The notes below the pieces were generated by a model. That model saw nothing but the letters and a program-made list of their open reading frames with translations. It did no database searches and was not told where the DNA came from. A stretch of 64,000 bases of DNA from Octopus vulgaris (taxonomy: Eukaryota), in NCBI GenBank assembly GCA_951406725.2, contig OX597819.1, positions 682,001-746,000 on the forward strand, read 5' to 3'. How positions within the stretch are numbered: the stretch's first letter is position 1; each line of letters opens with the position of its first letter. Position numbers and translations under genes: made by a program. Of the stretch, positions 1 through 54,431 are shown in pieces.

Positions 1-23
1 GTGTGTGCATGTATATATATATA

Positions 24-771
24 AGGTGTTCAGGTTACATTTGAAGATTTTTTTTGTTTCCTTTTCACAGGAATAGATTGATGTATTGGTGAACAGTCAA
101 CAACATTGAAGAGCATAAAGATTAAAATTGTAGTTATGAAAATGTTAGCTGACATGGAGGATTGGGAACAATCTGAACATTTTGATGGTCTAAGGGTGTG
201 TCTCCAGTGATGGTGATAACGTGCTGCCCCACATCTTTGAACAGGGTCTTTGGCTCCATTAAGACAGTTTTGCAAAGCTGGTGGAGACTGATCAATCCCA
301 GGCTGGAGAGGGTTGCTGTTGGAAGGTTGTATGTATGGCAGCAGGATTCAACTCCTCACCATACCTCCAGAAAGAGTCAGAAGTGGTTGTCGGAGAATTT
401 CTATGACTTCACCATCCTGAACTTCTGGCTTCCTAATTCCCTCGATTGTAATCCCATGGATGACTATGTGTGGGGATTGATTGAGAAAGAGACCAGCCAC
501 GCTGCCTGCAACTCAAGGCTGAGCTAGTAACAAAGATCAAGGAGGTGCTTGAAGATCTTCCCAGGGATACTGTGAGGAATGTACGTGTCAGGTTCTGGAG
601 CTGTCTTAAGGCCATGGTGAAAATTGAGCCTGGCTACTCTGAGTAAACTGTTATCGCACAAGCATAATCTGGTGGATATTTTTAGATTTTTTAAAAACAT
701 TTTAATTTTTGAATGGAATACTGTGATTTCTTTTCTTTTTATGCAAACTGTCAAATTTAGCCTGAACACTG
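24..771 (+). mobile_element. Internally deleted Tc1/mariner-superfamily element, DD37D (maT-like)
   Basis: Imperfect TIRs gtgttcaggttacatttga (26-44) and tcaaatttagcctgaacac (751-769). ORF 198-527 contains QQDSTPHHTS...WLPNSLDCNPMD with 37 residues between the last two catalytic Asp. Confidence 0.75.
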
Positions 772-826
772 TGTGTGTATCACTAAATCCACCCGTTTTT
801 TATTCTCTGTTTATTTTCTCTTATTC

Positions 827-862
827 CTTTCTGTTGAAGAGCACAGGCTCGAAACGTAAAAG
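827..862 (+). ncRNA. Minimal type I hammerhead-like motif with variant core
   Basis: CTTT | CTGTTGAA | GAGC-ACAG-GCTC | GAAA | CG | TA | AAAG. Stem I CTTT/AAAG, stem II GAGC/GCTC, palindromic ACGT stem III. The core deviates from CUGANGA. Duplicate at 31103-31138. Confidence 0.5.
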
Positions 863-974
863 ACATTCTCACTTTCCCGAGCATCAAACTAATACACCTG
901 CTTGTTGTTCATACACCTGTCTTCATCTTTTGTTTTCCTGTAAATTTCAACTATATATATATATATATATATGC

Positions 975-1318
975 CTCCCTCAATACCACTTCCCTCTCGA
1001 GGGGTCTTTGTCTTGCAAGTTATGAAGTGACCTTGTTGGTGTTGCTGCCACATAAAAAGCACCCAGTTAACTCTGTAAAGTGGTTGGCATTAGGAAGGGC
1101 ATCCAGTCATAAAACCATGTCAAATCAGACTATGCTAATGCCAGATAAAAAGCACTCAGTACACTTTCTAAAGTGGTTAGTGTTAGGAAGGCCATCTAGT
1201 TGTAAAAACCATGCCAAAGCAGACAGTGGAGCTTGGTGTAGTTACCAGGCTTGCCACCTCCTGTCAAATTGTCCGACCCATGCCAGCATGGAAGACAGAC
1301 ATTAAATGATGATGATGT
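975..1318 (+). mobile_element. SINE or RTE 3'-tail-bearing repeat ending in (GAT)n
   Basis: ggaagggcatccag...acccatgccagcatggaa...ttaaatgatgatgatg, the same terminus as the RTE 3' end at ~44770-44910. Related copies at 31255-31598 and 63165-63357. Confidence 0.65.
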
Positions 1319-1872
1319 GTATCATCACAACAACTGTTGTCACCACCATCTTCATCATCACCCACATTCCATGCTTATTTATGTCAGATCGGTTGTCAGA
1401 ACCTGAGTCATTTCTTATTAGGTAACACTACTCTTGTACATAAATTGGTGGAGTACATGTTGATCTTACAATTTCTTTTGGGCTCAGTTTTTACAGTGTG
1501 TAATTACTGCATTTTATTGTGGTATCAGCATCAGAAGAGTCACCAACTATGCCATAAGAATAAAGAATACTCATTATTTCACAATGTGTACATTTGGTCA
1601 AACTGTGTGGAAGCCCATTATGTACGTGTGTGTGTGTGTGTATCTGTATTTGTCACTCCTCACCACTTGGCAACTGGTGTTGGTTTGTTTATGTCAGTAT
1701 AACAGCTGTTCACCAAAGAGATAGAATAAGTATCAGGCTTAAAAAGTTGTGTATTGAGAGTCGACTGTTCAACTAAACCCATCAATGTTGTGCCCCAGCA
1801 TGGCCGCAGCTCAATGGCTGGAACAAGACAAACACATATATACATATCTATATCTGTTTATCTATGTATTTC

Positions 1873-1888
1873 GAGAGAGAGAGAGAGC

Positions 1889-1919
<31 letters not shown>

Positions 1920-1929
1920 CGAGAGCGAG

Positions 1930-2010
<81 letters not shown>
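1873..2010. repeat. (GA)n microsatellite
   Basis: Direct reading; second copy at 32153-32300. Confidence 0.95.
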
Positions 2011-2012
<2 letters not shown>

Positions 2013-2678
2013 AAAAGTGTAAACAAGGTTATGGTCAAAATACATTCCATAATTAAGCCAGTCTTCTGAGCAGCCAGGGAGTGAGAATGAGTGAACCATC
2101 AATTAGTTTCACTTTTCTTTAAAGCCACTTACTCAATCCTGGTCACTGAGATATTGTGGCAATCACTAAAAATATGTTAGTAACCTTGATTACAGTTTTA
2201 CTCTTATATACGCTGTGTCAGTGCTCCAGCTGATACAGATTTACACACACACACACACACATCTGTACATATACAATAGTTATGAGGTAAAGGAAGTGTA
2301 ACACTTCTAAACAAGTCTCATAAACAACTTTTCCAGTATACTTCATTAACAAAACAGATTGCATCTCATATCACATAATCAACTGTCTCCATATACTTCA
2401 CTGGAAGAAATAGATACACCTGCATGCTCAATAGTAGGAGTGTAATTTGACTGCATAAACTACTACTCCATAACAAAATTGTTTCTCCTATGCAATCATA
2501 GAAAATGCATGTAAATGTAGAAAAGTAGGAAGTATTTCAACAGAAATTCAGTTGATTATCTCAGCTTTGAAGGTTCAAGCTTTGAGATTTTTCAAATTAA
2601 GATCAAAGTAAAAGTACCTAATGAGTGAATCAATTACACCATAAAGACTTCTGTTGGTTCAAATAATTCTCACATCAA

Positions 2679-2778: not shown

Positions 2779-2875
2779 TATATATATTGATTGATTGATT
2801 GATTGATTTAGCAACAGCTTATGAGCTGTGGCCATGCTGGGGCACCGCCATTTGGTGTTGCTACTTGGTTTCACT

Positions 2876-5840
2876 TCATGGAAGCTTTCTAGCAACTGCT
2901 ATTTGGTGCATGAGAGAGTTCGATGCAGCTGCCCTCATCTGCCCCTCCTGCCGTGAAGTTGGCTCATCTGGGACACCTGACAGGAAGAGATCCAGCTTCA
3001 TTTTAAAGACATCTGTATCCACCCCATGCAGGTCTCTCAGGTTCTTCGGGAGGATATTGAAGAGCTGTGGGCCTCGGAAGCCCAGGCTATCACAGAATCT
3101 TGTCCTACATCTTGATGGCAGGTTTGGAGTCCTAGGCACCACGCAGTGGCGCCCAGTTCTGGCATTTGCGTAACTCTCGATGCCAAAGTTCAGGACACTT
3201 CCCTCCAGGATCTTCCAGATGTATATTATGGCATATCTTTCCCGCCTACACTCCAGTGGAATATAATTTTAATCTCTTGAGTCTTTCCCAGTAGCTTACA
3301 TTCTGCATAGAGGCTATCTTCTTTGTGTAGCTTCGTTGGATCGCCTCAAGTTCTGTGATCAACTTGACACTGGATGGTGACCATAGCTGAGAGCAATAGT
3401 CAAAGTGGCTTAGGACAAGTGTCTTCCAGAGGACCATCATGGTTTCTTGTTCTCTTGTTCTAAAGGTTCTAAGAATCCATCCAGCCAGCCGTCTACATTT
3501 CATTGTCAGTTTAGCAACATGTACATGAAAGGTCGCGTCATCACTCATGTGAATACCCAGGTCACGCACTGATTGTGCCTCTGGGATTGCAATCCCTCCG
3601 GGTCCAGTGTATTCATTGGGTATTGCATTCAGTTTTGCATGCTGATAGTATAAAGCTTGAAACTTTCCAGCATTGAACTGCATGCTATTCTTTTCAGCCC
3701 ACTTGTATATTTCGTCCAGCTCACATTGCAGGTGTTTAGTGTCCTCAGGGTTCTGTATTGCCTGTGAAACTTTTGTATCATCTGCATAACTTGTGATCGT
3801 GGCTCTCTGCGTGGCTGAGGGCATGTCTGAGAGGGCCATTATGAACAGTAGTGGTCCCAGAACAGTGCCCTGCGGAACACCGCTCACTATTTGTGTGTTA
3901 ATGGAGGTGGCCCCATTGGCTACTACCACCTGACTTCTATCCTTCAGAAAGTCATGAAGCCATTCTCCCAGTTTTCCAACTATGTTGAGATCACGCAGTT
4001 TGTGACATATCATCCATGATCGACTTTATCAAAGGCCTTTGCAAAGTCGAGATATATCACTTCCACATTTGAGTGGTTGAGCAGCCGTTTCAGCACCCAG
4101 TCATAGTGTTGTAGGAGCTGAGTTAAACAGCTTCTCCCTGGTCGGAAACCATGTTGGGTGTCGGGCAGCAAGTCATTCTCTTCAAGGAAGGTGATCAGCT
4201 TCCTTCTGACTATTCGTTCCATGACCTTGCTGATGTGTGAGGTCAGAGAGAGATAGGTCTATAGTTCTTGGCTTCCGCTCTGCTACCTCCTTTATGAATG
4301 GGGCATATTTTACCTTCCTTCAGTTTTCCTGGAAGTTTGCCAGCTGCAAGGAAGCTCTGAAAGAGGAACTGCAGTGGTCTTGCTAGGACTCTTTACATGC
4401 TTTTAGGAGGATTGCCGGGAATCCATCGGGCCAGTAGCTGAGTCTGTTTTCATTTCATCTATAGCCTCTCGTTACATCGTCTTCCTTTATATCGATGTAA
4501 TCTATCGTCGCCGCCTCTGATTTTATATCTGCAGTGGTAAAAAGTCAGTTGGATTGGTGATTTGGAGATGCCCAAGGGTGGAGTGAAAACACTCTTGAAT
4601 TGCTCATTCAGTATTTCACTTACGCTCATTGGTTTGCAAGTGTGCCATCCTTTTCGAGGAGTGGCCTATTCTACAGTGCACTGTAGCTGTTTCTCTGGCA
4701 TACCTGTAGAAAGCTCTGGGGTTAGATTTTATGTTTTCTATAGCTCAGGCTTCTTTGTCTGCTCTTTCTTTTTCATGGGAGAGGATTGCAGACATTTTTC
4801 GATTTCCAACAGTTTTATTTTTAGGCGGGACTTTTCACTGCTTTCAATCTGTTTGTTTAGGCGATTTGAAAATTTCGTACGCCGTCTCATTAAAATTTTC
4901 CTCTCTTTTGGGGATTTTGTTCTTGTGTACAGTGGCCTTTCTCTCTGGGACACATTTGTAGCATATGGCTTGCATTACAGACATGAATTGTTGAAGTTTC
5001 ACGTCGATGTCTGGCGAGGAGAGACATTTAGGCCAGTTTTGTTTGAGGATCTCTTTCTCAATTTGTTTCCAGTTTGCCTTATGGTAGTTCAAGCTGGAAA
5101 GATTTTGAGGGTTTTTGTAGGCTGCATGTCCGTGCTCTCTTTGGCCCGTACATGGTCAGCTCTATCATGTTGTGATCCGAGAGTAGTGTCGGTGTCACTT
5201 TCACATTATGGATGAGATCCATGTCATTTGTGAAGCAGAGATCCAGTGTGTTACCTGCCCTGGTTGGTTGGAGTATTACCTGCTCCATGTACAGGGTGTT
5301 GGTGAGGTTCAGGAGGGACCTCGCCTGTCCTCGTTCACATCTTGTCATTCCTGGGAGAGAAAGGCCCTCGGGCCATCTGACATTGGGCAGATTGAAGTCT
5401 CCCATAAGAAGCACACCATGTGTTGTTCTAATGTGGTTAGAATTTCTTCTATTTTTATAAGGCAGTCTTCAAACTTGCCCACATGGCTTGGGGCATCTGG
5501 AGGGCGTATATGTAGCACACACAACTACATCAAGTTGCCTAATATGTACAATTAGTGTGTCACACACCGAGTTTGAGTATGACAAGAGGACCTGGGGTGT
5601 GAGGTCCTCACGGATGTACATAGCAACACCTCCATGACTCCTTTCTTTCCTGTCGGTCCGTAGTACAGCATACTGTGGTATGTGTAACTCCGCATCTGCT
5701 ATGTCCGGTTTCAGTGTGCGTTTCTGTGCATGCATATGGCTTGATTGCATGCAACAAAGTCTCTCAGGAACGGGATCTTTGTCCTGTTACTGAGTGTTTG
5801 CAGTCCTCTGATGTTCAGTAGGAGTATCGAGGTGAGGTGT
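2876..5840 (-). pseudogene. LINE-A ORF2 (apurinic endonuclease + reverse transcriptase), multiply frameshifted
   Basis: APE motifs LLNIRGL, HGGVAMYI, LMGDFNLP, QPTRAGNTLDLCF, SDHN. RT motifs [49 protein letters not shown]1-like C-terminal region. Confidence 0.92.
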
Positions 5841-6726
5841 GTACGTTGTTGCCGGCGGTGTCCATCCTGTGTCTGTTTGCTGTGGTGGTCTGGTATATAG
5901 TGGGTAGTCCCACCTGCGGGCTTGCAGGTTTGATGAAGCCAGGTCAGCTGCTGTACAATCTTTTGTGCCATGCACAAAAAGATTGTTGCTCAGCAGCTGC
6001 TCTTTCGACAACATCATGTTGGCTGTTTGTGGCGCGCACAACATCTGCGTACCTCCGCTTTGGGGCAGGTGGTGCGTGGTCCATCCCTTTTCTTTGTGTT
6101 GATGGTTTGTCCATCTGCCTCGTGTCTCTGTGGCAGGGTCCCCGATGTGCAAAGCGGCAGCCTGCACCTTCCTTTCCATGCCAGCAGGAACCTCTCAGGT
6201 AGAACATACACACCCGTGTGCGCTGTTTGGTTCCATCCTTTGCGGTTCCACTTCTATTTCTGGTTGTTTCACTCTTTGGTCCTGCTTGAGCTTTTTCTTT
6301 TCCTTTAGCTCTTCCAGTCCTTCTTTTAGTTCTTCTTCCTCCTCTACCTCTTCACCGGGTTCTCCGTCTCCATGGCCCTTGCTGCCGGTTGGAGAACTTG
6401 CACCTGTTCACTTCCCGGGCAGGTTCTCATTCAAAACCTCCTCCCGGGCGTCCACCAGGTGGGGGTGACTTCTTTCATCGTCTCCATTCTTGCCATCTTT
6501 GCCCCGCTCGTTCTCAAAGATGGCATCAAGTGCGCCAATGTGCGACCGTACAAGCGCATATGAGCGCACGAATTCCTGTCTCTTTCGCTCCATCTGAGCC
6601 GCTGTCCTCTTGTAGCCTCTGCTCTTCAGCAGCAGCCGCAATCACCTCCCTAGGGCTATCTCCGCCGGCGCACTCCCATGCTCGTACGAATAAATCCAGC
6701 TCGTCACGTCTCCATGCTCTGGACAT
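5787..6726 (-). pseudogene. LINE-A ORF1: Myb/SANT trihelix-like N-terminus, acidic region and CCCH zinc finger; frameshifted
   Basis: Joining ORFs 6526-6726 and 6408-6641 with a 1-nt correction gives RAWRRDELDLFVRAW...EVIAAALKSRGYKRTAAQMERKRQEFVRSY. ORF 5944-6213 gives CMFYLRGSCWHGKEGAGCRFAH (C-x7-C-x8-C-x3-H). Confidence 0.7.
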
Positions 6727-6779: not shown

Positions 6780-8020
6780 GGAAGATATTAAGGCTAATTA
6801 GAAGATAGAGTACTTGAAAAGAAATATTAACAATATTAAAGTTTGTGTAAAAACGTTATTTGAGTAAAACGTTATTTAATCTTAAGGCTAATTAGGGGAT
6901 AGAGTATCTGAAAATGTATTAGCAATATTAATATTATGTTAGGCAGTGTGGATAAAAACGTTGTTTAATCTTAAGGCTAATTAGGAGATAGAGTATCTGA
7001 AAATATATTAGCAATATTAATATTATATTAGAGTGTGGGTAAAAAAAAAAAAAACGTTATTTAATCTTAAGGCTAATTTGGAGATAGAGTATCTGAAAAT
7101 ATATTAGCAATATTAATATTATATTAGAGTGTGGGTAATATTAAACGTTATTTAATTTAATCTTAAGGCTAATTAGAAGACAGAGTATCTGAAAAATTAT
7201 ATATACAATATTAAGCAATATTAACCGTTATTTAATTTAATCTTAAGGCTAATTTAGAAGATAGAGTATCTGAAAATATATTAGCAATATTAATATTATA
7301 TTAGAGTGTGATAAAAACGTTATTTAATCTTAAGGCTAATCAGGAGATAGAGTATCTGAAAATATATTAGCAATGTAAATATTATATTAGAGTGTGGGTA
7401 ATATTAAACGTTATTTAATTTAATCTTAAGGCTAATTAGAAGATAGAGTATCTGAAGAATTATTAACAATATTAAACGTTATTTAATTTAATCTTAAGGC
7501 TAATTAACAATAATTATTAACAATATTAAACAATATTAAACGTTATTTAATTTAATCCTAAGTGCTAATTAACAATAATTATTAACAATATTAAACAATA
7601 TTAAACGTTATTTAATTTAATCTTAAGGCTAATTAACAGTAATTATTAACAATATTAAACAATATTAAACGTTATTTAATTTAATCCTAAGGCTAATTAA
7701 CAATAATTATTAACAATATTAAACGTTATTTAATTTAATCTAATGCTAATTAGACGTTATTAATATTAAACGTTATTTAATTTAATCTTAGGCTAATTAG
7801 AAGATAGAGTATCTGAAAGATTATTAACAATATTAAAACAATATTAAACGTTATTTAATTTAATCTTAAGGCTAATTAACAATAATTATTAACAATATTA
7901 AACAATATTAAACATTATTTAATTTAATCCTAAGGTTAATTTGATGAGGTATCAATATTAAACGTTATTTAATTTAATCTTAAGGCTAATTAGAAGATAG
8001 AGTATCTGAAAATTATTATA
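6780..8020. repeat. Modular AT-rich tandem array (~17 units of 50-95 bp) upstream of LINE-A ORF1
   Basis: Recurrent core AAACGTTATTTAA(TTTAA)TCTTAAGGCTAATT with optional modules GAAGATAGAGTATCTGAAAA, TATATTAGCAATATTAATATTATATTAGAGTGTG and ACAATAATTATTAACAATATT. Confidence 0.9.
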
Positions 8021-8258
8021 TGAGAAGAGATATTGAAAATGTAAACAAACAAAATGACGATTATTATCGCAACTTTAACTAAGATGTGGGCCTAAGTGAA
8101 AGATAAAATAGAATAATAAATAAAATATGAAATAGATGAAATTGATACTTAATCCAACAATGTGGTCTGGATTATTTTTCTTGGTTTACGGGATTTTTTT
8201 CATAGGAGAGATACTTTTTTCTTTCTTGCAGGAGATAACTTGATTCAGTTATTTTTGC

Positions 8259-9919: not shown

Positions 9920-10024
<105 letters not shown>

Positions 10025-10300
10025 ATTAATTAATAAGGGTGAGAGAATTAGATACTAATTTAATAGTATATCTATTCAACACCAAGTGGCCTAGTGCTCC
10101 GAGAAACCTGGATTATTATAATATTTTATAATATATTATAATATCTTTACAAAATAAATATAAGAGAGTGGTCACTATATGGCTCACTCTAGCACCAGTT
10201 AATCCAAAAGGTTTCAACCACAAAAATACATGTTTCCCATGAAAGTCAGTACGATTGTTAGCTCACACGGACAGGGCAAATAAAAAAATAACAAAAATAC

Positions 10301-10395
10301 AGATTATTTTGGGACAATTGTTTCAACTATTAATGAATTAAATGTAATTTTACTTACAAAAAATCCACTTGTAGCTCGTCAGCCAAGAACTATCT
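10301..10395 (-). ncRNA. Type I hammerhead ribozyme, copy 1
   Basis: Minus strand: TTGG-CTGACGA-GCTA...TAGTT-GAAAC-AATT-GTC-CCAAAA; base of stem II slightly altered. Confidence 0.75.
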
Positions 10396-10839
10396 GGATG
10401 AAATCCACTCAATCACACGCCAGATTTTACCATAACGATAAATACGCGTGTGGTTCAATTGATTACATCCGACGTTATAATTCAAATGCCCCAACTAACA
10501 GCGCGCCAAACTTCTTCACGGAAAACAAAGACTGCATTTAGAAATAAATGTAGCATAATTATAATTAATTAATAAGGGTGAGAAATTAGATACTAATTTA
10601 ATAGTATATCTCATTCAACACCAAGTGGCCTAGTGTTCCGAGAAACCTGGATTATTATAATATTTTATAATATATTATAATATTTTTACAAAATAAATAT
10701 AAGAGAGTGGTCACTATATGGCTCACTCTAGCACCAGTTAATCCAAAAAGGTTTCAACCACAAAAATACATGTTTCCCATGAAAGTCAGTACGATTGTTA
10801 GCTCACACGGACAGGGCAAATAAAAAATAACAAAAATAC

Positions 10840-10933
10840 AGATTATTTTGGGACAATTGTTTCGCTTATTAATGAATTAAATGTAATTTTACTTACAAAA
10901 AATCCACTTGTAGCTCGTCAGCCAAAACTATCT
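10840..10933 (-). ncRNA. Type I hammerhead ribozyme, copy 2
   Basis: Minus strand: AGATAGTTTTGG-CTGACGA-GCT...AGC-GAAAC-AATT-GTC-CCAAAATAATCT. Complete core, stem I TTTTGG/CCAAAA extended by AGAT/ATCT. Confidence 0.85.
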
Positions 10934-11032
10934 GGATGAAATTTGAATTATAACGTCGGATGTAATCAATTGAACCACACGCGTATTTATCGTTATGGTA
11001 AAATCTGGTGTGTGATTGAGTGGATTTCATCC

Positions 11033-11121
11033 AGATAGTTTTGGCTGACGAGCTACAGAGTGGATTTTTTTGTAAGTAAAATTACATTTAATTCATTAAT
11101 AGCGAAACAATTGTCACAAAA
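11033..11121 (+). ncRNA. Type I hammerhead ribozyme, copy 3 (inverted segment)
   Basis: CTGACGA 11045-51, GCTA/TAGC stem II, GAAAC 11104-08, AATT, GTC 11113-15. First stem I pair is a G.A mismatch. Confidence 0.75.
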
Positions 11122-12932
<1,811 letters not shown>

Positions 12933-12955
12933 TATATATGTTATATATATATATG

Positions 12956-13006
<51 letters not shown>

Positions 13007-13052
13007 ATATATATATATATATGTTATATATATATATATATATATATATATG

Positions 13053-13163
<111 letters not shown>

Positions 13164-13206
13164 ATATATATATATGTTATATATATATATATATATATAT
13201 ATATGT

Positions 13207-13286
<80 letters not shown>

Positions 13287-13296
13287 ATATATATAT

Positions 13297-13578
<282 letters not shown>

Positions 13579-13660: not shown

Positions 13661-15956
<2,296 letters not shown>

Positions 15957-15998
15957 ATATATATATATATATATATGTTATATATATATATATATATG

Positions 15999-16035
<37 letters not shown>

Positions 16036-16071
16036 ATATATATATATATGTTATATATATATATATATATG

Positions 16072-16202
<131 letters not shown>

Positions 16203-16222
16203 GTTATATATATTATATATAT

Positions 16223-17109
16223 GATTGATTGATTGATTGATTCTAGTTTCAACTTATGAGCTGTGGCCATGCTGGGGCACCGCCATTTGGTGTTGCTACT
16301 TGGTTTCACTTCATGGAGGCTTTCTAGCAACTGCTATTTGGCATGAGAGAGTTCATGCAGCTGCCCTCATCTGCCCCTCCTGCCGTGAAGTTGGTTCATC
16401 TGGGACACCTGACAGGAAGAGATCCAGCTTCATTTTAAAGACATCTGTATCCGCCCCATGCAGGTCTCTCAGGTTCTTCGGGAGGATATTGAAGAGCTGT
16501 GGGCCTCGGAAGCCCAGGCTATCACAGAATCTTGTCCTACATCTTGATGGCAGGTTTGGAGTCCTAGGCACCACGCAGTGGCGCCCAGTTCTGGCATTTG
16601 CATAACTCTCGATGCCAAAGTTCAGGACACTTCCTCCAGGATCTTCCAGATGTATATTATGGCATATCTTTCCCGCCTACGCTCCAGGGAATATAATTTT
16701 AATCTCTTGAGTCTTTCCCAGTAGCTTACATTCTGCATAGAGGCTATCTTCTTTGTGTAGCTTCGTTGATCGCCTCAAGTTCTGTGATCAACTTGACACT
16801 GGATGGTGACCATAGCTGAGAGCAATAGTCAAAGTGGCTTAGGACAAGTGTCTTCCAGAGGACCGTCATGGTTTCTTGTTCTCTTGTTCTAAAGGTTCTA
16901 AGAATCCATCCAGCCAGCCGTCTACATTTCATTGTCAGTTTAGCAACATGTACATGAAAGGTCGCGTCATCACTCATGTGAATACCCAGGTCACGCACTG
17001 ATTGTGCCTCTGGATTGCAATCCCTCCGGGTCCAGTGTATTCATTGGGTATTGCATTCAGTTTTGCATGCTGATAGTATAAAGCTTGAAACTTTCCAGCA
17101 TTGAACTGC
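16223..17109 (-). mobile_element. 5'-truncated LINE-A 3' end with (AATC)n tail
   Basis: Matches 2787-3683; flanked by TA tracts. Confidence 0.92.
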
Positions 17110-17213
17110 TTATATATTTATATATATATAAATATATAAATATATATATATATATACATAAATATATAAATATATATATATATATAAATATATAAATATA
17201 TATATATATATAA

Positions 17214-17276
<63 letters not shown>

Positions 17277-17277
17277 A

Positions 17278-17357
<80 letters not shown>

Positions 17358-17540
17358 TATATATAAATACATAAATATATATATATATATAAATACATAA
17401 ATATATATATATACATAAATATATAAATATATATATATACATAAATATATAAATACATATACATATATAAATATATATATATATAAATACATATATATAT
17501 ATACATATATATACACACACACACACACACACATATATAT

Positions 17541-17655
<115 letters not shown>

Positions 17656-17692
17656 TATATGTATATATATATATATACATATACAAATATGT

Positions 17693-17737
<45 letters not shown>

Positions 17738-17853
17738 TGTATATATATATATATACATATACAAATATGTATACATATACACACACATACACACATATAC
17801 ATATATGTATATATATATATACATATACAAATATACACACACACACACACACA

Positions 17854-17895
<42 letters not shown>

Positions 17896-17904
17896 AATAT
17901 GTAT

Positions 17905-17948
<44 letters not shown>

Positions 17949-17955
17949 TATGTAT

Positions 17956-17994
<39 letters not shown>

Positions 17995-18006
17995 AATATG
18001 TATACA

Positions 18007-18046
<40 letters not shown>

Positions 18047-18066
18047 TGTATATATATATATATATA

Positions 18067-18507
<441 letters not shown>

Positions 18508-18778
18508 TTAATAAGGGTGAGAGAATTAGATACTAATTTAATAGTATATCTATTCAACACCAAGTGGCCTAGTGCTCCGAGAAACCTGGATTATTATAAT
18601 ATTTTATAATATATTATAATATTTTTACAAAATAAATATAAGAGAGTGGTCACTATATGGCTCACTCTAGCACCAGTTAATCCAAAAAGGTTTCAACCAC
18701 AAAAATACATGTTTCCCATGAAAGTCAGTACGATTGTTAGCTCACACGGACAGGGCAAATAAAAAATAACAAAAATAC

Positions 18779-18873
18779 AGATTATTTTGGGACAATTGTT
18801 TCGTTATTAATGAATTAAATGTAATTTTACTTACAAAAAAAATCCACTTGTAGCTCGTCAGCCAAAACTATCT
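18779..18873 (-). ncRNA. Type I hammerhead ribozyme, copy 4
   Basis: Same core as copy 2; one mismatch in basal stem II (GCTA/TAAC). Confidence 0.7.
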
Positions 18874-18972
18874 GGATGAAATTTGAATTATAACGTCGGA
18901 TGTAATCAATTGAACCACACGCGTATTTATCGTTATGGTAAAATCTGGTGTGTGATTGAGTGGATTTCATCC

Positions 18973-19067
18973 AGATAGTTTTGGCTGACGAGCTACAAGT
19001 GGATTTTTTTTGTAAGTAAAATTACATTTAATTCATTAATAGCGAAACAATTGTCACAAAATAATCT
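18973..19067 (+). ncRNA. Type I hammerhead ribozyme, copy 5
   Basis: AGATAGTTTTGG CTGACGA (18985-91) GCTA...TAGC GAAAC (19044-48) AATT GTC (19053-55) ACAAAATAATCT. Confidence 0.75.
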
Positions 19068-20800
<1,733 letters not shown>

Positions 20801-20801
20801 G

Positions 20802-20912
<111 letters not shown>

Positions 20913-20915
20913 ATG

Positions 20916-20954
<39 letters not shown>

Positions 20955-20965
20955 ATATATATATG

Positions 20966-21004
<39 letters not shown>

Positions 21005-21155
21005 TGTGTGTGTATATATATATATATATGTATATGTTATATATATGTATATATATATATATATATGTATATGTTATATATATATGTATATATATGTTAT
21101 ATATATATATATATATGTTATATATATATATATATGTTATATATATATATATATG

Positions 21156-21194
<39 letters not shown>

Positions 21195-21211
21195 ATATAT
21201 ATATATATATG

Positions 21212-21342
<131 letters not shown>

Positions 21343-22235
21343 GATTGATTGATTGATTGATTCTAGTTTCAACTTATGAGCTGTGGCCATGCTGGGGCAC
21401 CGCCATTTGGTGTTGCTACTTGGTTTCACTTCATGGAGGCTTTCTAGCAACTGCTATTTGGTGCATGAGAGAGTTCGATGCAGCTGCCCTCATCTGCCCC
21501 TCCTGCCGTGAAGTTGGTTCATCTGGGACACCTGACAGGAAGAGATCCAGCTTCATTTTAAAGACATCTGTATCCGCCCCATGCAGGTCTCTCAGGTTCT
21601 TCGGGAGGATATTGAAGAGCTGTGGGCCTCGGAAGCCCAGGCTATCACAGAATCTTGTCCTACATCTTGATGGCAGGTTTGGAGTCCTAGGCACCACGCA
21701 GTGGCGCCCAGTTCTGGCATTTGCATAACTCTCGATGCCAAAGTTCAGGACACTTCCTCCAGGATCTTCCAGATGTATATTATGGCATATCTTTTCCCGC
21801 CTACGCTCCAGGGAATATAATTTTAATCTCTGAGTCTTTCCCAGTAGCTTACATTCTGCATAGAGGCTATCTTCTTTGTGTAGCTTCGTTGATCGCCTCA
21901 AGTTCTGTGATCAACTTGACACTGGATGGTGACCATAGCTGAGAGCAATAGTCAAAGTGGCTTAGGACAAGTGTCTTCCAGAGGACCGTCATGGTTTCTT
22001 GTTCTCTTGTTCTAAAGGTTCTAAGAATCCATCCAGCCAGCCGTCTACATTTCATTGTCAGTTTAGCAACATGTACATGAAAGGTCGCGTCATCACTCAT
22101 GTGAATACCCAGGTCACGCACTGATTGTGCCCTCTGGGATTGCAATCCCTCCGGGTCCAGTGTATTCATTGGGTATTGCATTCAGTTTTGCATGCTGATA
22201 GTAAAAAGCTTGAAACTTTCCAGCATTGAACTGCT
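21343..22235 (-). mobile_element. LINE-A 3' fragment, duplicate of 16223-17109
   Basis: Same truncation (ttgaactgct|tata) and shared variants (HGADTD, ETMTVL). Confidence 0.92.
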
Positions 22236-22310
22236 TATATATTTATATATATATAAATATATAAATATATATATATATATACATAAATATATAAATATAT
22301 ATATATATAA

Positions 22311-22377
<67 letters not shown>

Positions 22378-22426
22378 TATAAATATATATATATATATAA
22401 ATATATAAATATATATATATATATAA

Positions 22427-22486
<60 letters not shown>

Positions 22487-22502
22487 TATAATATATATAT
22501 AT

Positions 22503-22533
<31 letters not shown>

Positions 22534-22590
22534 AATACATAAATATATATATATATATAAATATATAAATACATATACATATATATAAAT

Positions 22591-22625
<35 letters not shown>

Positions 22626-22652
22626 AATACATATATATATATATATAAATAC

Positions 22653-22706
<54 letters not shown>

Positions 22707-22770
22707 AATATATATATATAAATATATAAATATATATATATATATAATATATAAATATATATATATATAA

Positions 22771-22853
<83 letters not shown>

Positions 22854-22871
22854 TATATAATATATATATAA

Positions 22872-22957
<86 letters not shown>

Positions 22958-22964
22958 TATATAT

Positions 22965-23115
<151 letters not shown>

Positions 23116-23153
23116 TATATATATAAATATATAAATATATATATATATATATA

Positions 23154-23242
<89 letters not shown>

Positions 23243-24690: not shown

Positions 24691-25368
24691 ACCCGCTTGG
24701 GTTATAAAAAACATTAAGTCAAACCCAAAGACCTTCTTTCATTATGCAAAAGAAATAGCCTCAGTACACTGCAAGATAGGACCCCTCTTCCAAAAGGATG
24801 GCTCCCTCACAGACAGTCCAACTAGTATCAGTGAGTTACTGAATGATCAGTTCAAAAGTGTTTTTACCATCCCATTGAAACAGAGACAAGTGAATGAACC
24901 AGTGGACTTCTTTGCCGCCTCACCTATAACCAGCGAGGCAGTTAGAATGGAATGCATTGACATTAGTGGAGAAGACATACTATTAGCCATTGATGAAGTG
25001 GACACAAACTCAACTGCTGGTCCTGATGGTTTCCAAGCAATCCTCCTTAAATCGTTAAGCATATGCTGGCAAAACCCCTCCAGATTCTCTTCCAGAGCTT
25101 TCTTGCAAATGGCAGACTGCCAAGCAAGTTGAAGGAGGGAATAATATGCCCAATCCATAAAGGGGGAAGTAGAGCAAATGCCAAAAACTAAAGACCTATC
25201 TCTCTGACTTCACACATCAGCAAAGTCATGGAACGGATAGTCAGAGGGAAACTAATCACATTCCTTGAAAAAAATAACTTGCTGAGTGATATCCAGCATG
25301 GCTTTCGACCAAGTAGGAGCTGCCTGACCCAGCTCTTACAACATTATGACTGGGTGTTGAGACAGTTA

Positions 25369-26661
25369 CGAGGGGCGTTCAATAAGTAATGCCCCTGACC
25401 CACTTCCCATAGCAGTAGAGCAGCGAAACTTGGAACAGTTATTAGTCTTTTTCTACATAGGAACCACCCAGAGTTACGCATTTCTCCCATCGTTTGATGC
25501 AGCTCTGAAGACCGTTTTTGTAGAAGACCCCAGCTTGGTCCTCCAACCACGACGTGACTTCAGAAATCAAGGCTGCATCATCTGGGAAACGCTTTCCTTT
25601 CAAAAACAACTTCATGGCTGGGAAGAGGTGAAAATCAGAGGGTGCAAGGTCAGGAGAGTAGGGGGGATGGGGGATGAGTTCATAGCCGCACGCCTGTGCT
25701 TCTGATCTGGCGACACGCGAGTTGTGGATCGGAGCGTTGTCCTGCAGGAGGAGGATGCCTTTGCTGATCTTGCCCCGCCTCTTGATTTTGATAGCTTCTC
25801 TTAATTTCCTCAAAAGTGAAGCATAATAGACTCCTGTAATTGTGGCACCCTTTGCCAGGAAATCTGTCTTCACTACTCCGTCCTGGTCCCAGAAGACTGT
25901 AAGCATGACCTTGCCAGCGGAGGGCTGCACCCTTGCCTTCTTTGGAGGAGGTGAGTCACGGTGCTTCCACTGCATTGACTGGGCTTTGGTCTCTGGATCA
26001 TAGTGATGGACCCAGGTTTTATCCTATGCAATCAGTCTTTTGAAAAATTTTGACTCATCTTCTTGGCACATCTCCAAATTCATCCTCGAGCAATCGACGC
26101 GTTCTTGCTTCTGGAAAGGTGTGAGCAACCTGGGAATCCATCTGGCAGACACCTTTTGCATATGCAAATGGTCATGAATGATAGTTTCCACAGACTCGGT
26201 ACTAATCTTGACCTCATGGGCTATTTGGCGAATAGTTATGCGTCGATCTTCCAAAATGGCAGCCTCAACTTGACAGACAGATGCCTCATCAATGGCAGAA
26301 GGGGCGACCAGATCTGGGAGCTGTTTCCACAGAGTTCCGACCATGTTTGAATTCACGATGCCAGCGTTTTACAAGGTCATATGATGGGGCATCATCACCA
26401 TAAGTTACAATTTCATTTCATCAAAAGTCTCCCGTGGTGTGCGTCCTTTCAAATACAAAAACCGGATCACTGCTCGACACTCAACATGCTCCATTTCACA
26501 CTTGACTCAGTTCAAACACCTGTAAATCGGAAACCACAATTAGTTCAGAGCTGTAATTTGCCACTTAATCTATAGAGATATAAATAATTGCACATGCAAA
26601 ATTTCAGCTAGATCAAACAACTGCAAGTGGGTCAGGGGCATTACTTATTGAACGCCCCTCG
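25369..26661 (-). mobile_element. Mariner (DD34D) DNA transposon, 1293 bp
   Basis: Perfect 37-bp TIRs CGAGGGGCGTTCAATAAGTAATGCCCCTGACCCACTT; TA target duplication at 25367-68 and 26662-63. Confidence 0.96.
25442..26494 (-). pseudogene. Mariner transposase, disrupted
   Basis: MEHVECRAVIRFL..., WIPRLL, QDNAPIH...HPPYSPDLAPSD (D34D spacing). In-frame stop at 26024-26026 and a frameshift near 26320-26400. Confidence 0.9.
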
Positions 26662-27137
26662 TACTCAACAACTCAAATGTGGACGTAATATACCTTGATT
26701 TTGCAAAAGCTTTTGACAAAGTGGATCATGGTATGATATGCCACAAATTGTGTGAATTCGGCATAGCTGGAAAACTTGGAGAGTGGTTATAAGATTTTCT
26801 GAAAGATAGAAGTGAGGCAGTAGTGGCTAATGGAGCCACCTCTATGAAAACACAAATAGTGAGCGGTGTTCCACAGGGCACTGTTTTGGGACCACTGTTT
26901 TTTATAGTGGCCCTCTCAGATATGCCCTCAAGTGCCTAGATAGCCACTCTTGCAAGCTACGCAGACGATATGAAAATCTCGCAGAAAATACAGAACCCCA
27001 GCGATGTTGCACATCTGCAGCAGGAGTTGGACTCAATTTACAGATGGGCTGAGGATAATAATATGCAGTTTAATGCTGAAAAATTCCAAACCCTGCACTA
27101 CCAGCATCCAAAACTGAATATGAAACTTACTATTATA

Positions 27138-27298
27138 GGTGCAGGAGTGGCTGTGTGGAAAGTAGCTTGCTTACCAACCATATGGTTCTGGGATCATTCC
27201 CACTGTGTGGCACCTTGGGCAAGTGTCTTCTACTATAGCCTCGGGCTGATCAAAGCCTTGTGTTGGATTTGGTAAACGGAAACTGAAAGAAGCCCGTC

Positions 27299-27343
<45 letters not shown>

Positions 27344-27565
27344 CATGTATGTGTGTGTATGTGTTTGTGTGTCTGTGTTTGTCCCCCCAACATAGCTTGA
27401 CAACCGATGCTGGTGTGTTTACGTCCCCGTAACTTAGCGTTTCGGCAAAAGAGACCGATAGAATAAGTACTAGGCTTACTAAGAATAAGTCCTGGGGTTG
27501 ATTTGCTTGACTAAAGGTGGTGCTCCAGCATGGCCACAGTCAAATGACTAAAACAAGTAAAAGAG
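27138..27565 (+). mobile_element. tRNA-derived SINE (octopus-type), full length
   Basis: Head ggtgcaggagtggctgtgtgg..., central TA/TG microsatellite, 3' gtgctccagcatggccacagtcaaatgact...gtaaaagag. Confidence 0.85.
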
Positions 27566-29123
27566 GGTACACTGGTCCACAAGGAATTTCAATCCCAGAG
27601 CCTAAGTGAGGGACCTGGGTATCGACATGAGTGATGATACCTCTTTCCAAGTGCACATAACCAGAATGGCGACAAAGTGCAGACGACTGGCTGGATGGAT
27701 CCTGAGAACATTCAGAACCAGAATTAGGAAACCACGATGGTCCTCTGGAGGACATTCATCCTCAACCACCTGGATTACTGCTCATAGCTATGGTCACCCA
27801 CCAGTGTGAAATTAACAGCGGACCTTGAAGCAATCCAGAGAAGATTCACCAAGAAGATTGTCTCTTTGCAACTGCTCAGCTACATGACAATAGTGGACTC
27901 TATGGAATGCATATGTTATTCTCATTATGCTCATCTTAACTTTTTCTTCTTGCTAAAAACATTTTAAAAATTAGCAATTCACTAAGACATAAAAGTGGAA
28001 AGATAATACAGATACTCATTGCTGAAATACATTCAGACATAACTCAGAAGCAATATCTTAAACTAAAATAATATTTCATAAATTTTCTGTTTCTTTGGTA
28101 TTTAAAAATTTTATAAATGGCCTTGACTAATTTTATTCAATATTTATATCTATACTTAAACTAATAGCTTCAATAATACTGAAGAGATATTTGTTTTAAT
28201 GAGAATGCATACTTGTAACATTAACAAAGGCATGATGATTTAGGATAAATTAGGAGTTTCTGATTGAAAAACTAATAAAAAGACAACAAATTAAGCCAGA
28301 CTCTTAATTATGAATGCAGATACATAGTTCTTATCATCCCTATCACTAATCCATTTGTTGAGCTAAAGACAAAAACAATGTGAGATAGTTAACACATGTA
28401 AATAATAAAAGAAACTGTGTCATTCTATTAATACTTTAAAGACAGATTAGCACAATTTATAGTCAATGACTAAGATATCCTCTCCTCCCTATCAAAATAC
28501 TCCATTCATTGAAAGCTTTTATTTCATCGAAATAGAATTTAGGACCAAAAGATAATGTAAAATACAAACTCTGATAGGTTTTACACAAAACTTATAAATA
28601 TCTAAACATAATTTGTTCTAAGAATTAGTATGATAATGTAAAAATACTCTATTTAAAATAAAATTAATCAGAAAGAAAGTACTGTGTAACACTTTAATTT
28701 ATGAAATTAAACTATCTTAGGCAAAAGCATGACTGTGTGGTTATGAAGCTTGGTTTGCAGTCACATGCTTTTGGGTTCAGCCCTACAGCACAGGTCTTCT
28801 ACTTTAACCCCAGTCAACCAATACTTTGTGAGTGAATTTAGTAGATAAAAACTGTGTGAAAGCTTGTTGTGTGTGCGTGCGTGAATTTCTGGCTGAATTT
28901 GAACTTTGACTATAACTAATTACCACATCAAATTTTCTATTGTTATTTCCATCTTACAATTAATGAAAATAACAACTCTTAAAAATACATGGACAAACAA
29001 AAGCTATATGTGAGATATGGAAAAACAATATGGGAACCACAAAAAGATAAAAAGTTCTAGAACTCAGGCAAGAAAAATACTAAAAACTTTCTTAGAATTG
29101 ATGGCAAACTGTAATAAACATAC

Positions 29124-29235: not shown

Positions 29236-30298
29236 CTAATGACAATAGTTAAAAAAAAAATAATACTCAATTTTGGAAGAGAAAATTGAATTCCATTTAA
29301 ACAGAAAATAAAATACTTAGACCAAAAATGAATTTACTTGTATCACACTAGATTAAGAATGACACATAAGTCAACAAACTTCTATGCCTGTATGCATGTG
29401 AAGGCATCTTTATTCAGAAATCTTTGTACAATTTAGAATCTGTTATTTATATGTGTATCTCAAACACAAATAGTTACTGCCCTGCCATGAAATACCCAAA
29501 CATTTCAATCAACTCCATTGCATCCCAAGCACCTTTTCCACAATACTGAAACACTGGCAACCCAATATCTATCTACATGAGTCTGGAGAGGGGCACTGAT
29601 GGCTGATATTAGATGGTATTCAATAGTGTTATGGAATGATACTGAAAATGCGAGGTGGATGACATGGGGAGGTAATTCCAAGAAGAGGGGAAACTGTAGT
29701 ACAAAAGGGCATGATGCGACTCTGCTGTCATATAATTATTATAACAACAGCTGAGGTAGAGTTAGTTGAGTGATAAATATTGAGAAGATGTGTAGACAAA
29801 ATGATATGCTTTTAATGACCTAATTTTTGCCAAGATGGTCAGGTCTTCTTGAGCACAGTAAATCGCCACTCATCTTGGTCTTTTGTCATCTCTTCCATGA
29901 GGTTCAACATCCTGAGATTGGTCTCTACTACTTTATTCCCTGTCTTCCTTGTTTTCCTCTTCCACAGGTTCCATCCACATTTAATGTCAAAGGCTTTCTC
30001 TGAGCCAACAAAGGTAGTGGCTTACTTTTCGCTAAATTCTCCTGAAGTTGCCTTTCTAGAAACAAAGCATCAGTAATGCTTCTCCATGTCATAAAACTAC
30101 AACTCGGCTAAGCTAATTCTTTTCCTGATTAGTTGAAGTATAACTCTTTCTCTAACTTTCATTACCTGGTCCAGCAATTTGATACCTCTGTAATTACTTC
30201 TCTTTAAGGCATCTCCTTTAATTAAAATGCTGGTGTATATACACACACCCATTATATATTTATATGTGCACATGCGTGTGTGCATGTATATATATATA

Positions 30299-32151: not shown

Positions 32152-32302
<151 letters not shown>

Positions 32303-52498: not shown

Positions 52499-52578
52499 TA
52501 GTGTCTTCTACTATAGCCTCGGGCCGACCAAAGCCTTGTGAGTGGATTTGGTAGACGGAAACTGAAAGAAGCCTGTCG

Positions 52579-52609
<31 letters not shown>

Positions 52610-52838
52610 GTATGTGTTTGTGTCTGTGTTTGTCCCCCTAGCATTGCTTGACAACCGATGCTGGTGTGTTTATGTCCCCGTTACTTAGCGATTCGGCAAA
52701 AGTGACCGATAGAATAAGTACTGGGCTTACAAAAGAATAAGTCCCGGGGTCGAGTTGCTCGATTAAAGGCAGTGCTCCAGCATGGCCGCAGTCAAATGAC
52801 TGAAACAAGTAAAAGAGTAAAAGAGTAAAAGAGAGAGA
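52499..52838 (+). mobile_element. Same SINE family, 5'-truncated, (GTAAAAGA)n tail
   Basis: Aligns to 27220-27565; splits the first copy of the direct repeat of the 351-bp unit. Confidence 0.85.

Positions 52839-54387: not shown

Positions 54388-54389
<2 letters not shown>
54003..54389 (-). mobile_element. Same SINE family, full length; partial copy at 54434-54581
   Basis: Reverse complement aligns to 27138-27565. Further decayed heads at ~28727, 32990, 33704, 38295, 41593, 56843, 59670 and 62760. Confidence 0.85.

Positions 54390-54431
<42 letters not shown>

What the first reader, a model, noticed from the sequence alone, without database searches (positions are those of the whole stretch)
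5944..6726. LINE ORF1 with a hidden Myb/SANT trihelix-like domain and a CCCH zinc finger
Seen: removing one nucleotide in GCGGCTGCTGCTG (~6630-6640) fuses two ORFs into W-x3-E-x2-LFV-x2-W...IA-x2-L-x3-GY-x-RT-x2-Q-x3-K-x3-F-x3-Y. Further downstream come an acidic/charged stretch and C-x7-C-x8-C-x3-H. Known: the first pattern is that of Myb/SANT-like trihelix DNA-binding domains (GT-1 factors, Harbinger partner proteins; Pfam Myb_DNA-bind_4), whereas CR1/L2 ORF1s usually carry PHD, RRM, esterase or zf/leucine-zipper modules. Inference: an unusual ORF1 able to bind DNA (own promoter array or TA-rich targets) and RNA (CCCH).
Basis: partly seen in the sequence, partly recalled or inferred. Interest (0 to 1): 0.75.

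Follow-up and report, generated by a model that had tools for sequence, protein, structure and literature searches.

The report
Retrotransposon ORF1 with Myb-like DNA-binding domain
A jumping gene in what is probably an octopus genome encodes a packaging protein that starts with a Myb/trihelix-like fold, a type normally used to grip DNA, followed by a zinc finger of a type that usually binds RNA, a pairing unusual for this class of element although what it binds is untested.

Summary
Observation confirmed and extended. The region is ORF1 (6726 to about 5815, minus strand, about 130 nt longer than reported) of a two-ORF, APE-type LINE. The frame join at about 6630-6640 is real. Four uninterrupted relatives, one from Octopus vulgaris, carry the N-terminal domain, a C-x7-C-x8-C-x3-H finger and a C-terminal amphipathic helix in one ORF. 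The X-read-through matches the Octopus protein at 37 of 72 residues without a gap. The domain folds as three helices (AlphaFold2 of that relative, pLDDT 86). Its best Pfam match is Myb_DNA-bind_4, below the curated cut-off. Its top structural match is GT-1 (Z 8.1), tied with other Myb/SANT folds. It is basic, with an invariant R-x3-Q-x2-R-K helix, but lacks two of the three trihelix tryptophans, so it is a degenerate Myb/trihelix-like domain. Binding is untested. TA-repeat association is shared by two other LINE families here, so it is not attributable to this domain. Verdict: new ORF1 architecture of a known element class; interest 0.5.

The parts
5815..6726 (-). ORF1, about 300 codons, broken by about five frame changes and one stop in this copy
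   Evidence: Frameshift-aware alignment to P0035 spans 6726-5818, with matching aromatic C-terminus; stop at 5817-5815
6510..6726 (-). Myb/SANT trihelix-like domain (72 residues), split by a one-base frame break at about 6630-6640
   Evidence: model and fold searches of the relative's domain
6211..6509 (-). Charged, unconserved, predicted disordered linker; reading frame unresolved (TGA at 6410-6408 plus a net frame change)
   Evidence: pLDDT below 50 over residues 77-193 of the relative
6145..6210 (-). Single CCCH finger, C-x7-C-x8-C-x3-H
   Evidence: zf-CCCH E=0.0042 and Torus E=4.5e-6, both below cut-off; family profile hits MBNL fingers at E=0.002-0.004; spacing
5925..6015 (-).
   Evidence: Invariant columns in 5 of 5 relatives; helix 253-287 in the model
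2876..5865 (-). ORF2 with APE endonuclease and reverse transcriptase, in several frames; its start overlaps the end of ORF1 (start codon inferred at 5865)
   Evidence: Exo_endo_phos_2 E=8.6e-10 at 5082-5468; RVT_1 E=1.3e-8 and 1.3e-12 at 4013-4258 and 3249-4025; junction
6785..8021 (-). AT-rich (80%) tandem array of irregular monomers, mostly 64-96 nt, directly upstream of ORF1; probably 5' UTR/promoter, but membership of the element is not shown
   Evidence: core motif 14 times in the array and 0 times elsewhere in the window
2779..2808 (-). 3' tail of (AATC)n followed by a short TA run and an assembly gap
   Evidence: the same tail ends the truncated copies at 16214-17109 and 21334-22234

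Best explanation
This is ORF1p of an APE-type, two-ORF LINE, probably of the CR1 group and probably from an octopod. Its layout is: basic Myb/trihelix-like domain, disordered charged linker, one CCCH finger, C-terminal amphipathic helix (shown by comparison; about 0.9). Most likely mechanism (inferred; about 0.4): ORF1p coats the element's mRNA through the CCCH finger and the charged linker, and self-associates through the C-terminal helix. It enters the nucleus with ORF2p, where the Myb-like helix 3 grips double-stranded DNA with modest sequence preference and holds the particle on chromosomal DNA. The APE endonuclease of ORF2 then chooses and nicks the TA-rich site. The Myb-like domain occupies the N-terminal slot that a PHD finger fills in many CR1/L2 ORF1s. 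The frame breaks in this copy are assembly indels or post-insertion decay, not programmed recoding.
For: Shown: ORF1 lies upstream of and overlaps APE-RT on the same strand. Four relatives hold all modules in one ORF. Two 90%-identical O. vulgaris relatives lie on different contigs of 135.6 and 58.8 Mb, as a dispersed repeat would. Three-helix model, pLDDT 85.8, pTM 0.66. GT-1 ranks first at Z 8.1, rmsd 6.9, 73 aligned. Atlas model TM 0.67-0.69 to four Myb_DNA-bind_4 clusters. Myb_DNA-bind_4 is matched at E up to 1 by 3 of 4 relatives' domains, best E 1.1e-4, and by the window read-through at E 0.0078. The domain has pI 9.1-9.9 in 5 of 5 sequences. R40, Q44, R47 and K48 of helix 3 are invariant in 4 of 4 relatives and kept in the window. 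From papers (passages): helix 3 is the likely DNA-binding helix of GT-1 (PMC4195496); PHD fingers are common in CR1/L2 ORF1s (PMC4120745).
Against: No binding of any kind was tested. Every Pfam score shown is below the curated cut-off. Foldseek gave no match at E up to 0.001. The VIA Z of 8.1 is tied with RAD, LUX, TEAD4, ARR1 and SANT domains and lies in the range the tool calls a common arrangement. Sequence searches of the PDB found no Myb. The helix-2 and helix-3 tryptophans are absent. The relatives' own genomic context could not be fetched, so only this copy is directly shown to sit in a LINE. An intact 606-codon ORF nearby shows that indel error is not uniform.
Confidence: 0.45

Rival explanations
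1. The Myb-like domain is simply a second RNA-binding or chaperone module that replaces the RRM of other ORF1s and has no role on DNA.
For: No RRM is detected in the family. A basic surface fits RNA as well as DNA. Atlas neighbours include an RNase J family bearing Myb_DNA-bind_4 (row 7), and Cdc5 Myb domains appear among the structural matches (rank 14). Loss of two tryptophans suggests a changed role.
Against: Conservation is concentrated on the recognition-helix face. Most top structural matches are DNA-binding domains. A CCCH finger is already present for RNA.
Confidence: 0.25
2. ORF1p binds the monomers of its own 5' tandem array and so controls its own transcription, or recognises its own DNA as Harbinger/Ping Myb proteins do.
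For: A 1.24-kb array with a core repeated 14 times and found nowhere else in the window lies directly upstream. Ping ORF1 has a GT1/Myb/SANT domain thought to bind element DNA (PMC9921582, passage).
Against: The array is seen in one copy only, so it is not shown to be part of the element. Recalled GT-box hexamers occur only 1-2 times each in the array. Repeated 5' subunits also occur in CR1-group elements with no ORF1 (PMC13343379, passage).
Confidence: 0.15
3. The domain is a SANT-type protein or histone-tail interaction module, a chromatin reader standing in for PHD.
For: SANT domains (MiDAC Z 7.2, DNAJC2 7.1, MTA1 6.6) are tied with or close to the top hit. It holds the same N-terminal position as PHD in CR1/L2 ORF1s (PMC4120745).
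Against: Net charge is +3 to +6 in 5 of 5 sequences; histone-binding SANT domains are typically acidic (recalled).
Confidence: 0.1
4. Artefact: a chance frame join, or a fragment of a Harbinger-type or host Myb gene that happens to lie next to a LINE.
For: Neither frame alone matches a Myb family. No second ORF1 copy exists in the window. Word-based searches found no relative.
Against: Four intact relatives carry the domain and the CCCH finger in one ORF, with a gap-free 37 of 72 match across the break. The ORF1 end overlaps the APE start.
Confidence: 0.02

Closest known systems
CR1/L2 ORF1 types I-V (Khazina and Weichenrieder scheme, as surveyed in PMC4120745), especially PHD-led types III and V
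   Same: Separate ORF upstream of APE-RT, modular, small N-terminal domain, zinc-binding module.
   Different: No PHD, RRM, CCHC knuckle, Transposase_22 or esterase was detected here. Myb, SANT and CCCH occur 0 times in that paper's main text and in none of its Table 1 rows.
R2 and R4/Dong LINEs with an N-terminal Myb/SANT domain (PMC7998251, section 3.3)
   Same: A LINE-encoded Myb-type domain; Dong inserts into (TAA)n microsatellites. The R2 chain 8ibw (residues 148-215) appears at Z 5.2 against the full model.
   Different: Those are restriction-like-endonuclease elements with the Myb domain on the reverse transcriptase protein. Here it is on a separate ORF1p of an APE element and resembles GT-1/Myb_DNA-bind_4.
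Plant trihelix factor GT-1 (PDB 2jmw) and Pfam PF13837 Myb_DNA-bind_4 proteins (MSANTD-type)
   Same: Three helices with a long third helix, G-(F/Y)-x-R entry into helix 3, basic recognition helix, L-x2-I pattern where the fourth helix lies.
   Different: 14% identity; shorter helix 1-2 region; helix-2 and helix-3 tryptophans absent; helix 3 and the fourth-helix segment model as one continuous helix; below the Pfam cut-off.
PIF/Harbinger (Ping/Pong) ORF1 Myb protein (PMC9921582)
   Same: Transposon-encoded accessory protein with a GT1/Myb/SANT domain; a possible donor class.
   Different: DNA transposon working with a DDE transposase; no homology beyond the fold was tested.
HTH_1 ORF1p of Coccomyxa L1/Zepp (PMC5203782)
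   Same: Precedent for a helix-turn-helix domain in a LINE ORF1.
   Different: LysR-type HTH in an algal L1-type element; different domain family and clade.
Muscleblind-type CCCH fingers; P0025 (unnamed record with a PHD-like N-terminus and several CCCH fingers)
   Same: MBNL fingers are the best PDB sequence matches of the family profile. P0025 shares the C-x7-C-x8-C-x3-H spacing.
   Different: Single finger here, with 8 rather than about 5 residues between Cys2 and Cys3. That P0025 is a LINE ORF1 is recalled or inferred, not shown; its PHD was read by eye, with no Pfam match.

Membership tests
APE-type two-ORF LINE | ORF2 with APE endonuclease followed by reverse transcriptase | tested here: met
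   Exo_endo_phos_2 and RVT_1 above cut-off
APE-type two-ORF LINE | Simple-repeat 3' tail and 5'-truncated sister copies | tested here: met
   (AATC)n tail; four truncated copies at 96-98% identity, two of which keep the tail
APE-type two-ORF LINE | Target-site duplication | not testable with these tools
   Ends lie in TA runs and beside an N gap
CR1 clade (versus L2, Daphne, Crack, Zenon, Nimb) | Reverse transcriptase groups with CR1 references in a tree | not testable with these tools
   No classified reference set was available to the script machine; the supplement motif search was uninformative. The CR1-group label is recalled from ORF2 motifs.
CR1-Zenon | Poly-A tail and no ORF1 (as stated in PMC13343379) | tested here: not met
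   ORF1 present; tail is (AATC)n
Myb/SANT-like fold | Three-helix bundle with helix-turn-helix | tested here: met
   Helices 7-20, 26-35, 42-77, pLDDT 85.8 (modelled on the O. vulgaris relative); the hit list is dominated by Myb/SANT-type domains
Pfam PF13837 Myb_DNA-bind_4 | Score of at least 27 bits | tested here: not met
   17 bits for the window read-through, 19.2 for P0032, 14.6 for the P0035 domain; the bit score behind the best E of 1.1e-4 was not printed
Trihelix (GT-1) domain | Conserved tryptophan in each helix (PMC4195496) | tested here: not met
   Helix-1 Trp present in the window and 3 of 4 relatives; helix-2 and helix-3 Trp absent in 5 of 5
Trihelix (GT-1) domain | Elongated helix 3 and fourth amphipathic helix (F/Y)(F/Y)xx(L/I/M)xx(L/I/M) | tested here: inconclusive
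   The aliphatic-x2-aliphatic half is present in 4 of 5 sequences, the aromatic pair in 1 of 5; modelled as a continuation of helix 3; GT-1 Z 8.1, rmsd 6.9, 73 aligned, tied with others
Trihelix (GT-1) domain | Sequence-specific DNA binding | not testable with these tools
   Needs a binding assay; only charge and conservation were examined
CCCH zinc finger | Three Cys and one His, conserved | tested here: met
   All four invariant in 5 of 5 relatives and present in the window
CCCH zinc finger | Canonical C-x7/8-C-x5-C-x3-H spacing and Pfam cut-off | tested here: not met
   Spacing is 7, 8, 3; 17.4 bits against a cut-off of 20.5
ORF1 types I-IV | RRM with CCHC, Transposase_22, PHD, or esterase | tested here: not met
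   None matched in the window frames or the relatives by hmmscan; the model has no folded region large enough for an RRM or esterase. HHpred-level search was not run.

The most novel reading that the evidence does not exclude
ORF1p itself is a sequence-specific targeting factor. Its trihelix-like domain reads (TA)n or related AT-rich repeats and delivers an APE-type LINE to microsatellites. That would be an independent re-invention, on a separate protein, of the Myb-guided targeting of R2 and proposed for Dong, with target choice separable from the endonuclease and the reverse transcriptase.
Probability: 0.15. Interest if true: 0.75.

Novelty: new variant of a known kind. Interest (0 to 1): 0.5.

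Why it matters
LINE ORF1 proteins are seen as RNA-packaging proteins, and what their accessory domains (PHD, esterase) do is an open question. A lineage in which the N-terminal slot holds a small, basic, Myb/trihelix-like domain gives a direct handle: 75 residues, four invariant helix-3 positions, and standard assays to tell DNA, RNA and histone binding apart. If it binds DNA, ORF1p would act on the genome (targeting or self-regulation) and not only on the RNA. It also adds an ORF1 architecture that domain annotation misses, because all matches fall below Pfam cut-offs and the O. vulgaris proteins are unnamed. ORF1 domain shuffling as such is well known, which limits the surprise.

Tried and rejected
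Word-based homologue searches gave nothing for the CCCH frame (0 of 1091 candidates) or the Myb region (0 of 5). The family profile returned only 2 of its own members among 3571 candidates. The family is therefore rare in the collection or poorly reached, and its range is unknown. PDB sequence searches found no Myb (0 hits; mostly ribosomal S8 at E of 0.07 or worse, rejected as chance). Foldseek had no match at E up to 0.001. The top VIA hit of the full-length model, fission yeast Sap1 (Z 8.6), draws on the low-confidence packing of the C-terminal helix (pTM 0.26) and is not among the 50 rows for the domain alone, so it was set aside. Atlas feature scores were all below 0.9, leads only. The complex prediction for three copies of the C-terminal helix gave no verdict. 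Bacterial and archaeal genomes: 72 pattern matches, none a relative. The window's own domain was neither folded nor searched in the Atlas; all structural evidence comes from the O. vulgaris relative. Programmed frameshifting was rejected because the relatives are uninterrupted. A single ORF1-ORF2 fusion was considered, because the C-terminal helix frame runs into the APE start. It was judged unlikely because the relatives end with a stop after a tail that aligns to the other two frames. RIP-like hypermutation was considered (52 of 54 substitutions are transitions) and rejected: changes go both ways with no single context. Of the 32 hits, 5 matched across most of the query and were treated as candidate family members, plus cluster mate P0035; P0006 is a fragment and was left out of the alignments. 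The other 27 match mainly the finger and were not aligned.

Full report
Setting. The window is AT-rich eukaryotic DNA full of microsatellites. The finding lies in a minus-strand LINE running from a tandem array (6785-8021) through ORF1 (ATG at 6726), an APE endonuclease (Exo_endo_phos_2, E 8.6e-10) and a reverse transcriptase (RVT_1, E 1.3e-8 and 1.3e-12) to an (AATC)n tail at about 2790-2808. Four 5'-truncated copies at 96-98% identity lie at 11122-12682, 16214-17109, 19064-20625 and 21334-22234. None reaches ORF1, so there is no second ORF1 in the window. The only named relatives are Octopus vulgaris proteins; an octopod host is my inference. The CR1-group label rests on recalled ORF2 motifs and was not tested by a tree.

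Is the join real? Neither frame alone matches a Myb family. Read through with X at the break, the N-terminus has Myb_DNA-bind_4 as best Pfam match (E 0.0078, 17 bits, cut-off 27), which is weak alone. The decisive evidence came from the other end. An exhaustive search with the unaltered CCCH frame gave 32 hits, of which 5 matched across most of the query. Three of these (P0008, P0010, P0032, unnamed records) and the O. vulgaris cluster mate P0035 (CAI9734422.1) carry an N-terminal domain, linker, finger and C-terminal helix in one uninterrupted ORF. P0007 begins at the end of that domain and P0006 is a fragment. Since the query held none of the N-terminal domain, this is independent support. 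The read-through matches P0035 at 37 of 72 positions with no internal gap. A profile of the four relatives scores it at 85.7 bits and the two separate frames at 21.1 (positions 1-30) and 56.1 (positions 34-77), against at most 8.0 for 2000 shuffles. Nine of the ten columns invariant in the relatives are kept in the window copy.

True extent. Frameshift-aware alignment to P0035 runs from 6726 to 5818. After the finger comes a conserved amphipathic helix, broken at a T-run near 5981, then a Pro/Gln-rich tail and a stop at 5817-5815 that overlaps the first APE motif. An ATG at 5865 lies within the codons of a tryptophan kept in 4 of 5 relatives' otherwise variable tails. I infer that it starts ORF2, overlapping ORF1 by about 50 nt. 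The linker between about 6420 and 6310 holds a TGA and a net frame change that the three alignments place differently, so the extent of the acidic stretch is unresolved. The breaks look like sequencing indels. The duplicate copies at 16214 and 21334 differ by 1 substitution but 6 indels in 841 columns, and those at 11122 and 19064 by 5 and 6 in 1501. That predicts two to three breaks in 912 nt against about five seen. Against a uniform error rate, another LINE nearby keeps an intact 606-codon frame, so some decay may be real.

What the domain is. Structural work used the intact O. vulgaris relative. AlphaFold2 gives helices 7-20, 26-35 and 42-77, pLDDT 85.8, pTM 0.66. In the full protein the linker is disordered and a second long helix spans 253-287. 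Among 48,161 solved chains, GT-1 ranks first (Z 8.1, rmsd 6.9, 73 aligned), tied with RAD Myb (7.7), LUX (7.6), TEAD4 and ARR1 (7.4) and SANT domains (7.1-7.2). The tool warns that such values can reflect a common helical arrangement, and Foldseek found nothing at E up to 0.001. The Atlas model matches four Myb_DNA-bind_4 clusters at TM 0.67-0.69, and 3 of 4 relatives' domains match that Pfam family at E up to 1, best 1.1e-4. The three approaches, each weak, point to the same subfamily. Strict membership fails: the scores shown are under the cut-off, and the tryptophans of helices 2 and 3 that define trihelix domains (PMC4195496, passages) are missing in 5 of 5 sequences. It works like a Myb/trihelix domain in fold and charge (pI 9.1-9.9; invariant R40, Q44, R47, K48) without being a canonical member.

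The finger. All four ligands are invariant. The 7-8-3 spacing is shared by the five aligned relatives and seen in 8 of the 32 hits, whereas most others show 7-5-3 or 8-5-3 (first six fingers of each listed). Best solved matches are muscleblind fingers (E 0.002-0.004). One hit, P0025, combines a PHD-like N-terminus (read by eye) with several fingers, two of this spacing. I recall such proteins as ORF1s of invertebrate CR1-like elements, which would make this protein a derivative in which Myb replaced PHD. No call shows this, and the family profile did not extend to P0025's termini.

Targets. All five distinguishable LINE insertions in the window have at least one end at or within four bases of a TA run. 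About 24% of positions 1-30000 and 2.6% of 33001-64000 lie within 10 nt of such runs. Two of the five belong to other families (72-78% nucleotide identity; 36-52% protein identity to this copy), and both are truncated before ORF1. TA association is thus a wider property, most simply of the endonuclease or of survival in such sequence, and cannot be credited to the Myb domain. The upstream array has a core found 14 times there and nowhere else in the window. It is seen in one copy only, and recalled GT-box hexamers occur just 1-2 times each.

Mechanism. Shown: architecture, conservation, predicted fold, charge. Inferred: RNA coating by finger and linker, self-association through the C-terminal helix (heptad pattern read by eye), nuclear entry with ORF2p, and DNA tethering by helix 3 while the endonuclease picks the site (about 0.4-0.45). 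Rivals: RNA-binding only (0.25), binding its own array (0.15), SANT-like protein contact (0.1), artefact (0.02). Sequence-specific TA targeting by ORF1p is the bold form of the main reading (0.15).

Comparison and novelty. The survey of 448 Jockey-superfamily ORF1s lists PHD, RRM, CCHC, Transposase_22, esterase and zf/lz, with no Myb, SANT or CCCH (PMC4120745: abstract, passages, Table 1 section). Term searches of main texts found no Myb or CCCH in PMC13343379, PMC5203782 or PMC11203168 and no Myb in PMC10294476 (passages only). Ten library searches listed no paper on such an ORF1, judged from listings and abstract starts. PMC9115989 and PMC8967140 (passages) cover octopus RTE, Dong and CR1 without describing such a protein in the passages shown. 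Precedents: Myb domains in R2 and R4/Dong, on the reverse transcriptase protein (PMC7998251, section 3.3); GT1/Myb in Ping ORF1 (PMC9921582, passage); an HTH_1 ORF1 in algal L1 (PMC5203782, passages). Repbase, Dfam, subscription journals and most supplements were not seen (one supplement searched for two motifs; one only listed), and any of them might already record this family.

Verdict. A real, conserved and apparently undescribed ORF1 architecture within a well-known class whose ORF1s are known to shuffle domains. New variant of a known kind; interest 0.5, rising to about 0.75 if the domain proves to direct insertion.

Noticed in passing
window 13662-15726 (minus strand): 5'-truncated LINE of another family with an intact 606-codon reading frame (13744-15564), a short-repeat tail and TA runs on both sides; probably young. 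Its exact sequence is not in the protein collection.
   Followed up: partly
window 24695-27870 (plus strand): Related LINE family, 72-78% nucleotide identity to the main element, 5'-truncated next to a TA array and interrupted by other repeats.
   Followed up: partly
window 1-2678 vs 30276-32968; 10560-13420 vs 18499-21342; 15726-18066 vs 20831-23186: Large near-identical duplications (99.1%, 97.1%, 91.4%), the first ending at the N gap 2679-2778; likely assembly or haplotype duplicates, so the four truncated copies represent two insertions.
   Followed up: partly
window 10021-11121 and 18499-19068: AT-rich repeat of about 540 nt, tandemly duplicated, with an internal inverted repeat; it abuts the 3'-cut ends of two LINE copies. 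Possibly a non-autonomous DNA element; not classified.
   Followed up: no
window 2847-4412 vs 11122-12682 and 19064-20625: Substitutions between copies are almost all transitions (52 of 54 and 47 of 49), in both directions and without one dominant context; unexplained.
   Followed up: partly
window 1046-1317, 31326-31597, 44739-44906, 63174-63355; and 27134-27565, 50267-50491, 52500-52821, 54005-54578: Two dispersed short repeat families, likely SINEs; not classified.
   Followed up: no
window 8022-8258: Unique 237-nt segment between the tandem array and the TA array; if truncated copies are a guide (5' ends abut TA), the element may begin near 8258.
   Followed up: partly
protein P0025 (hit): Unnamed 534-residue protein with a PHD-like N-terminus and several CCCH fingers, two with the same 7-8-3 spacing; candidate representative of the ancestral ORF1 type.
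   Followed up: partly
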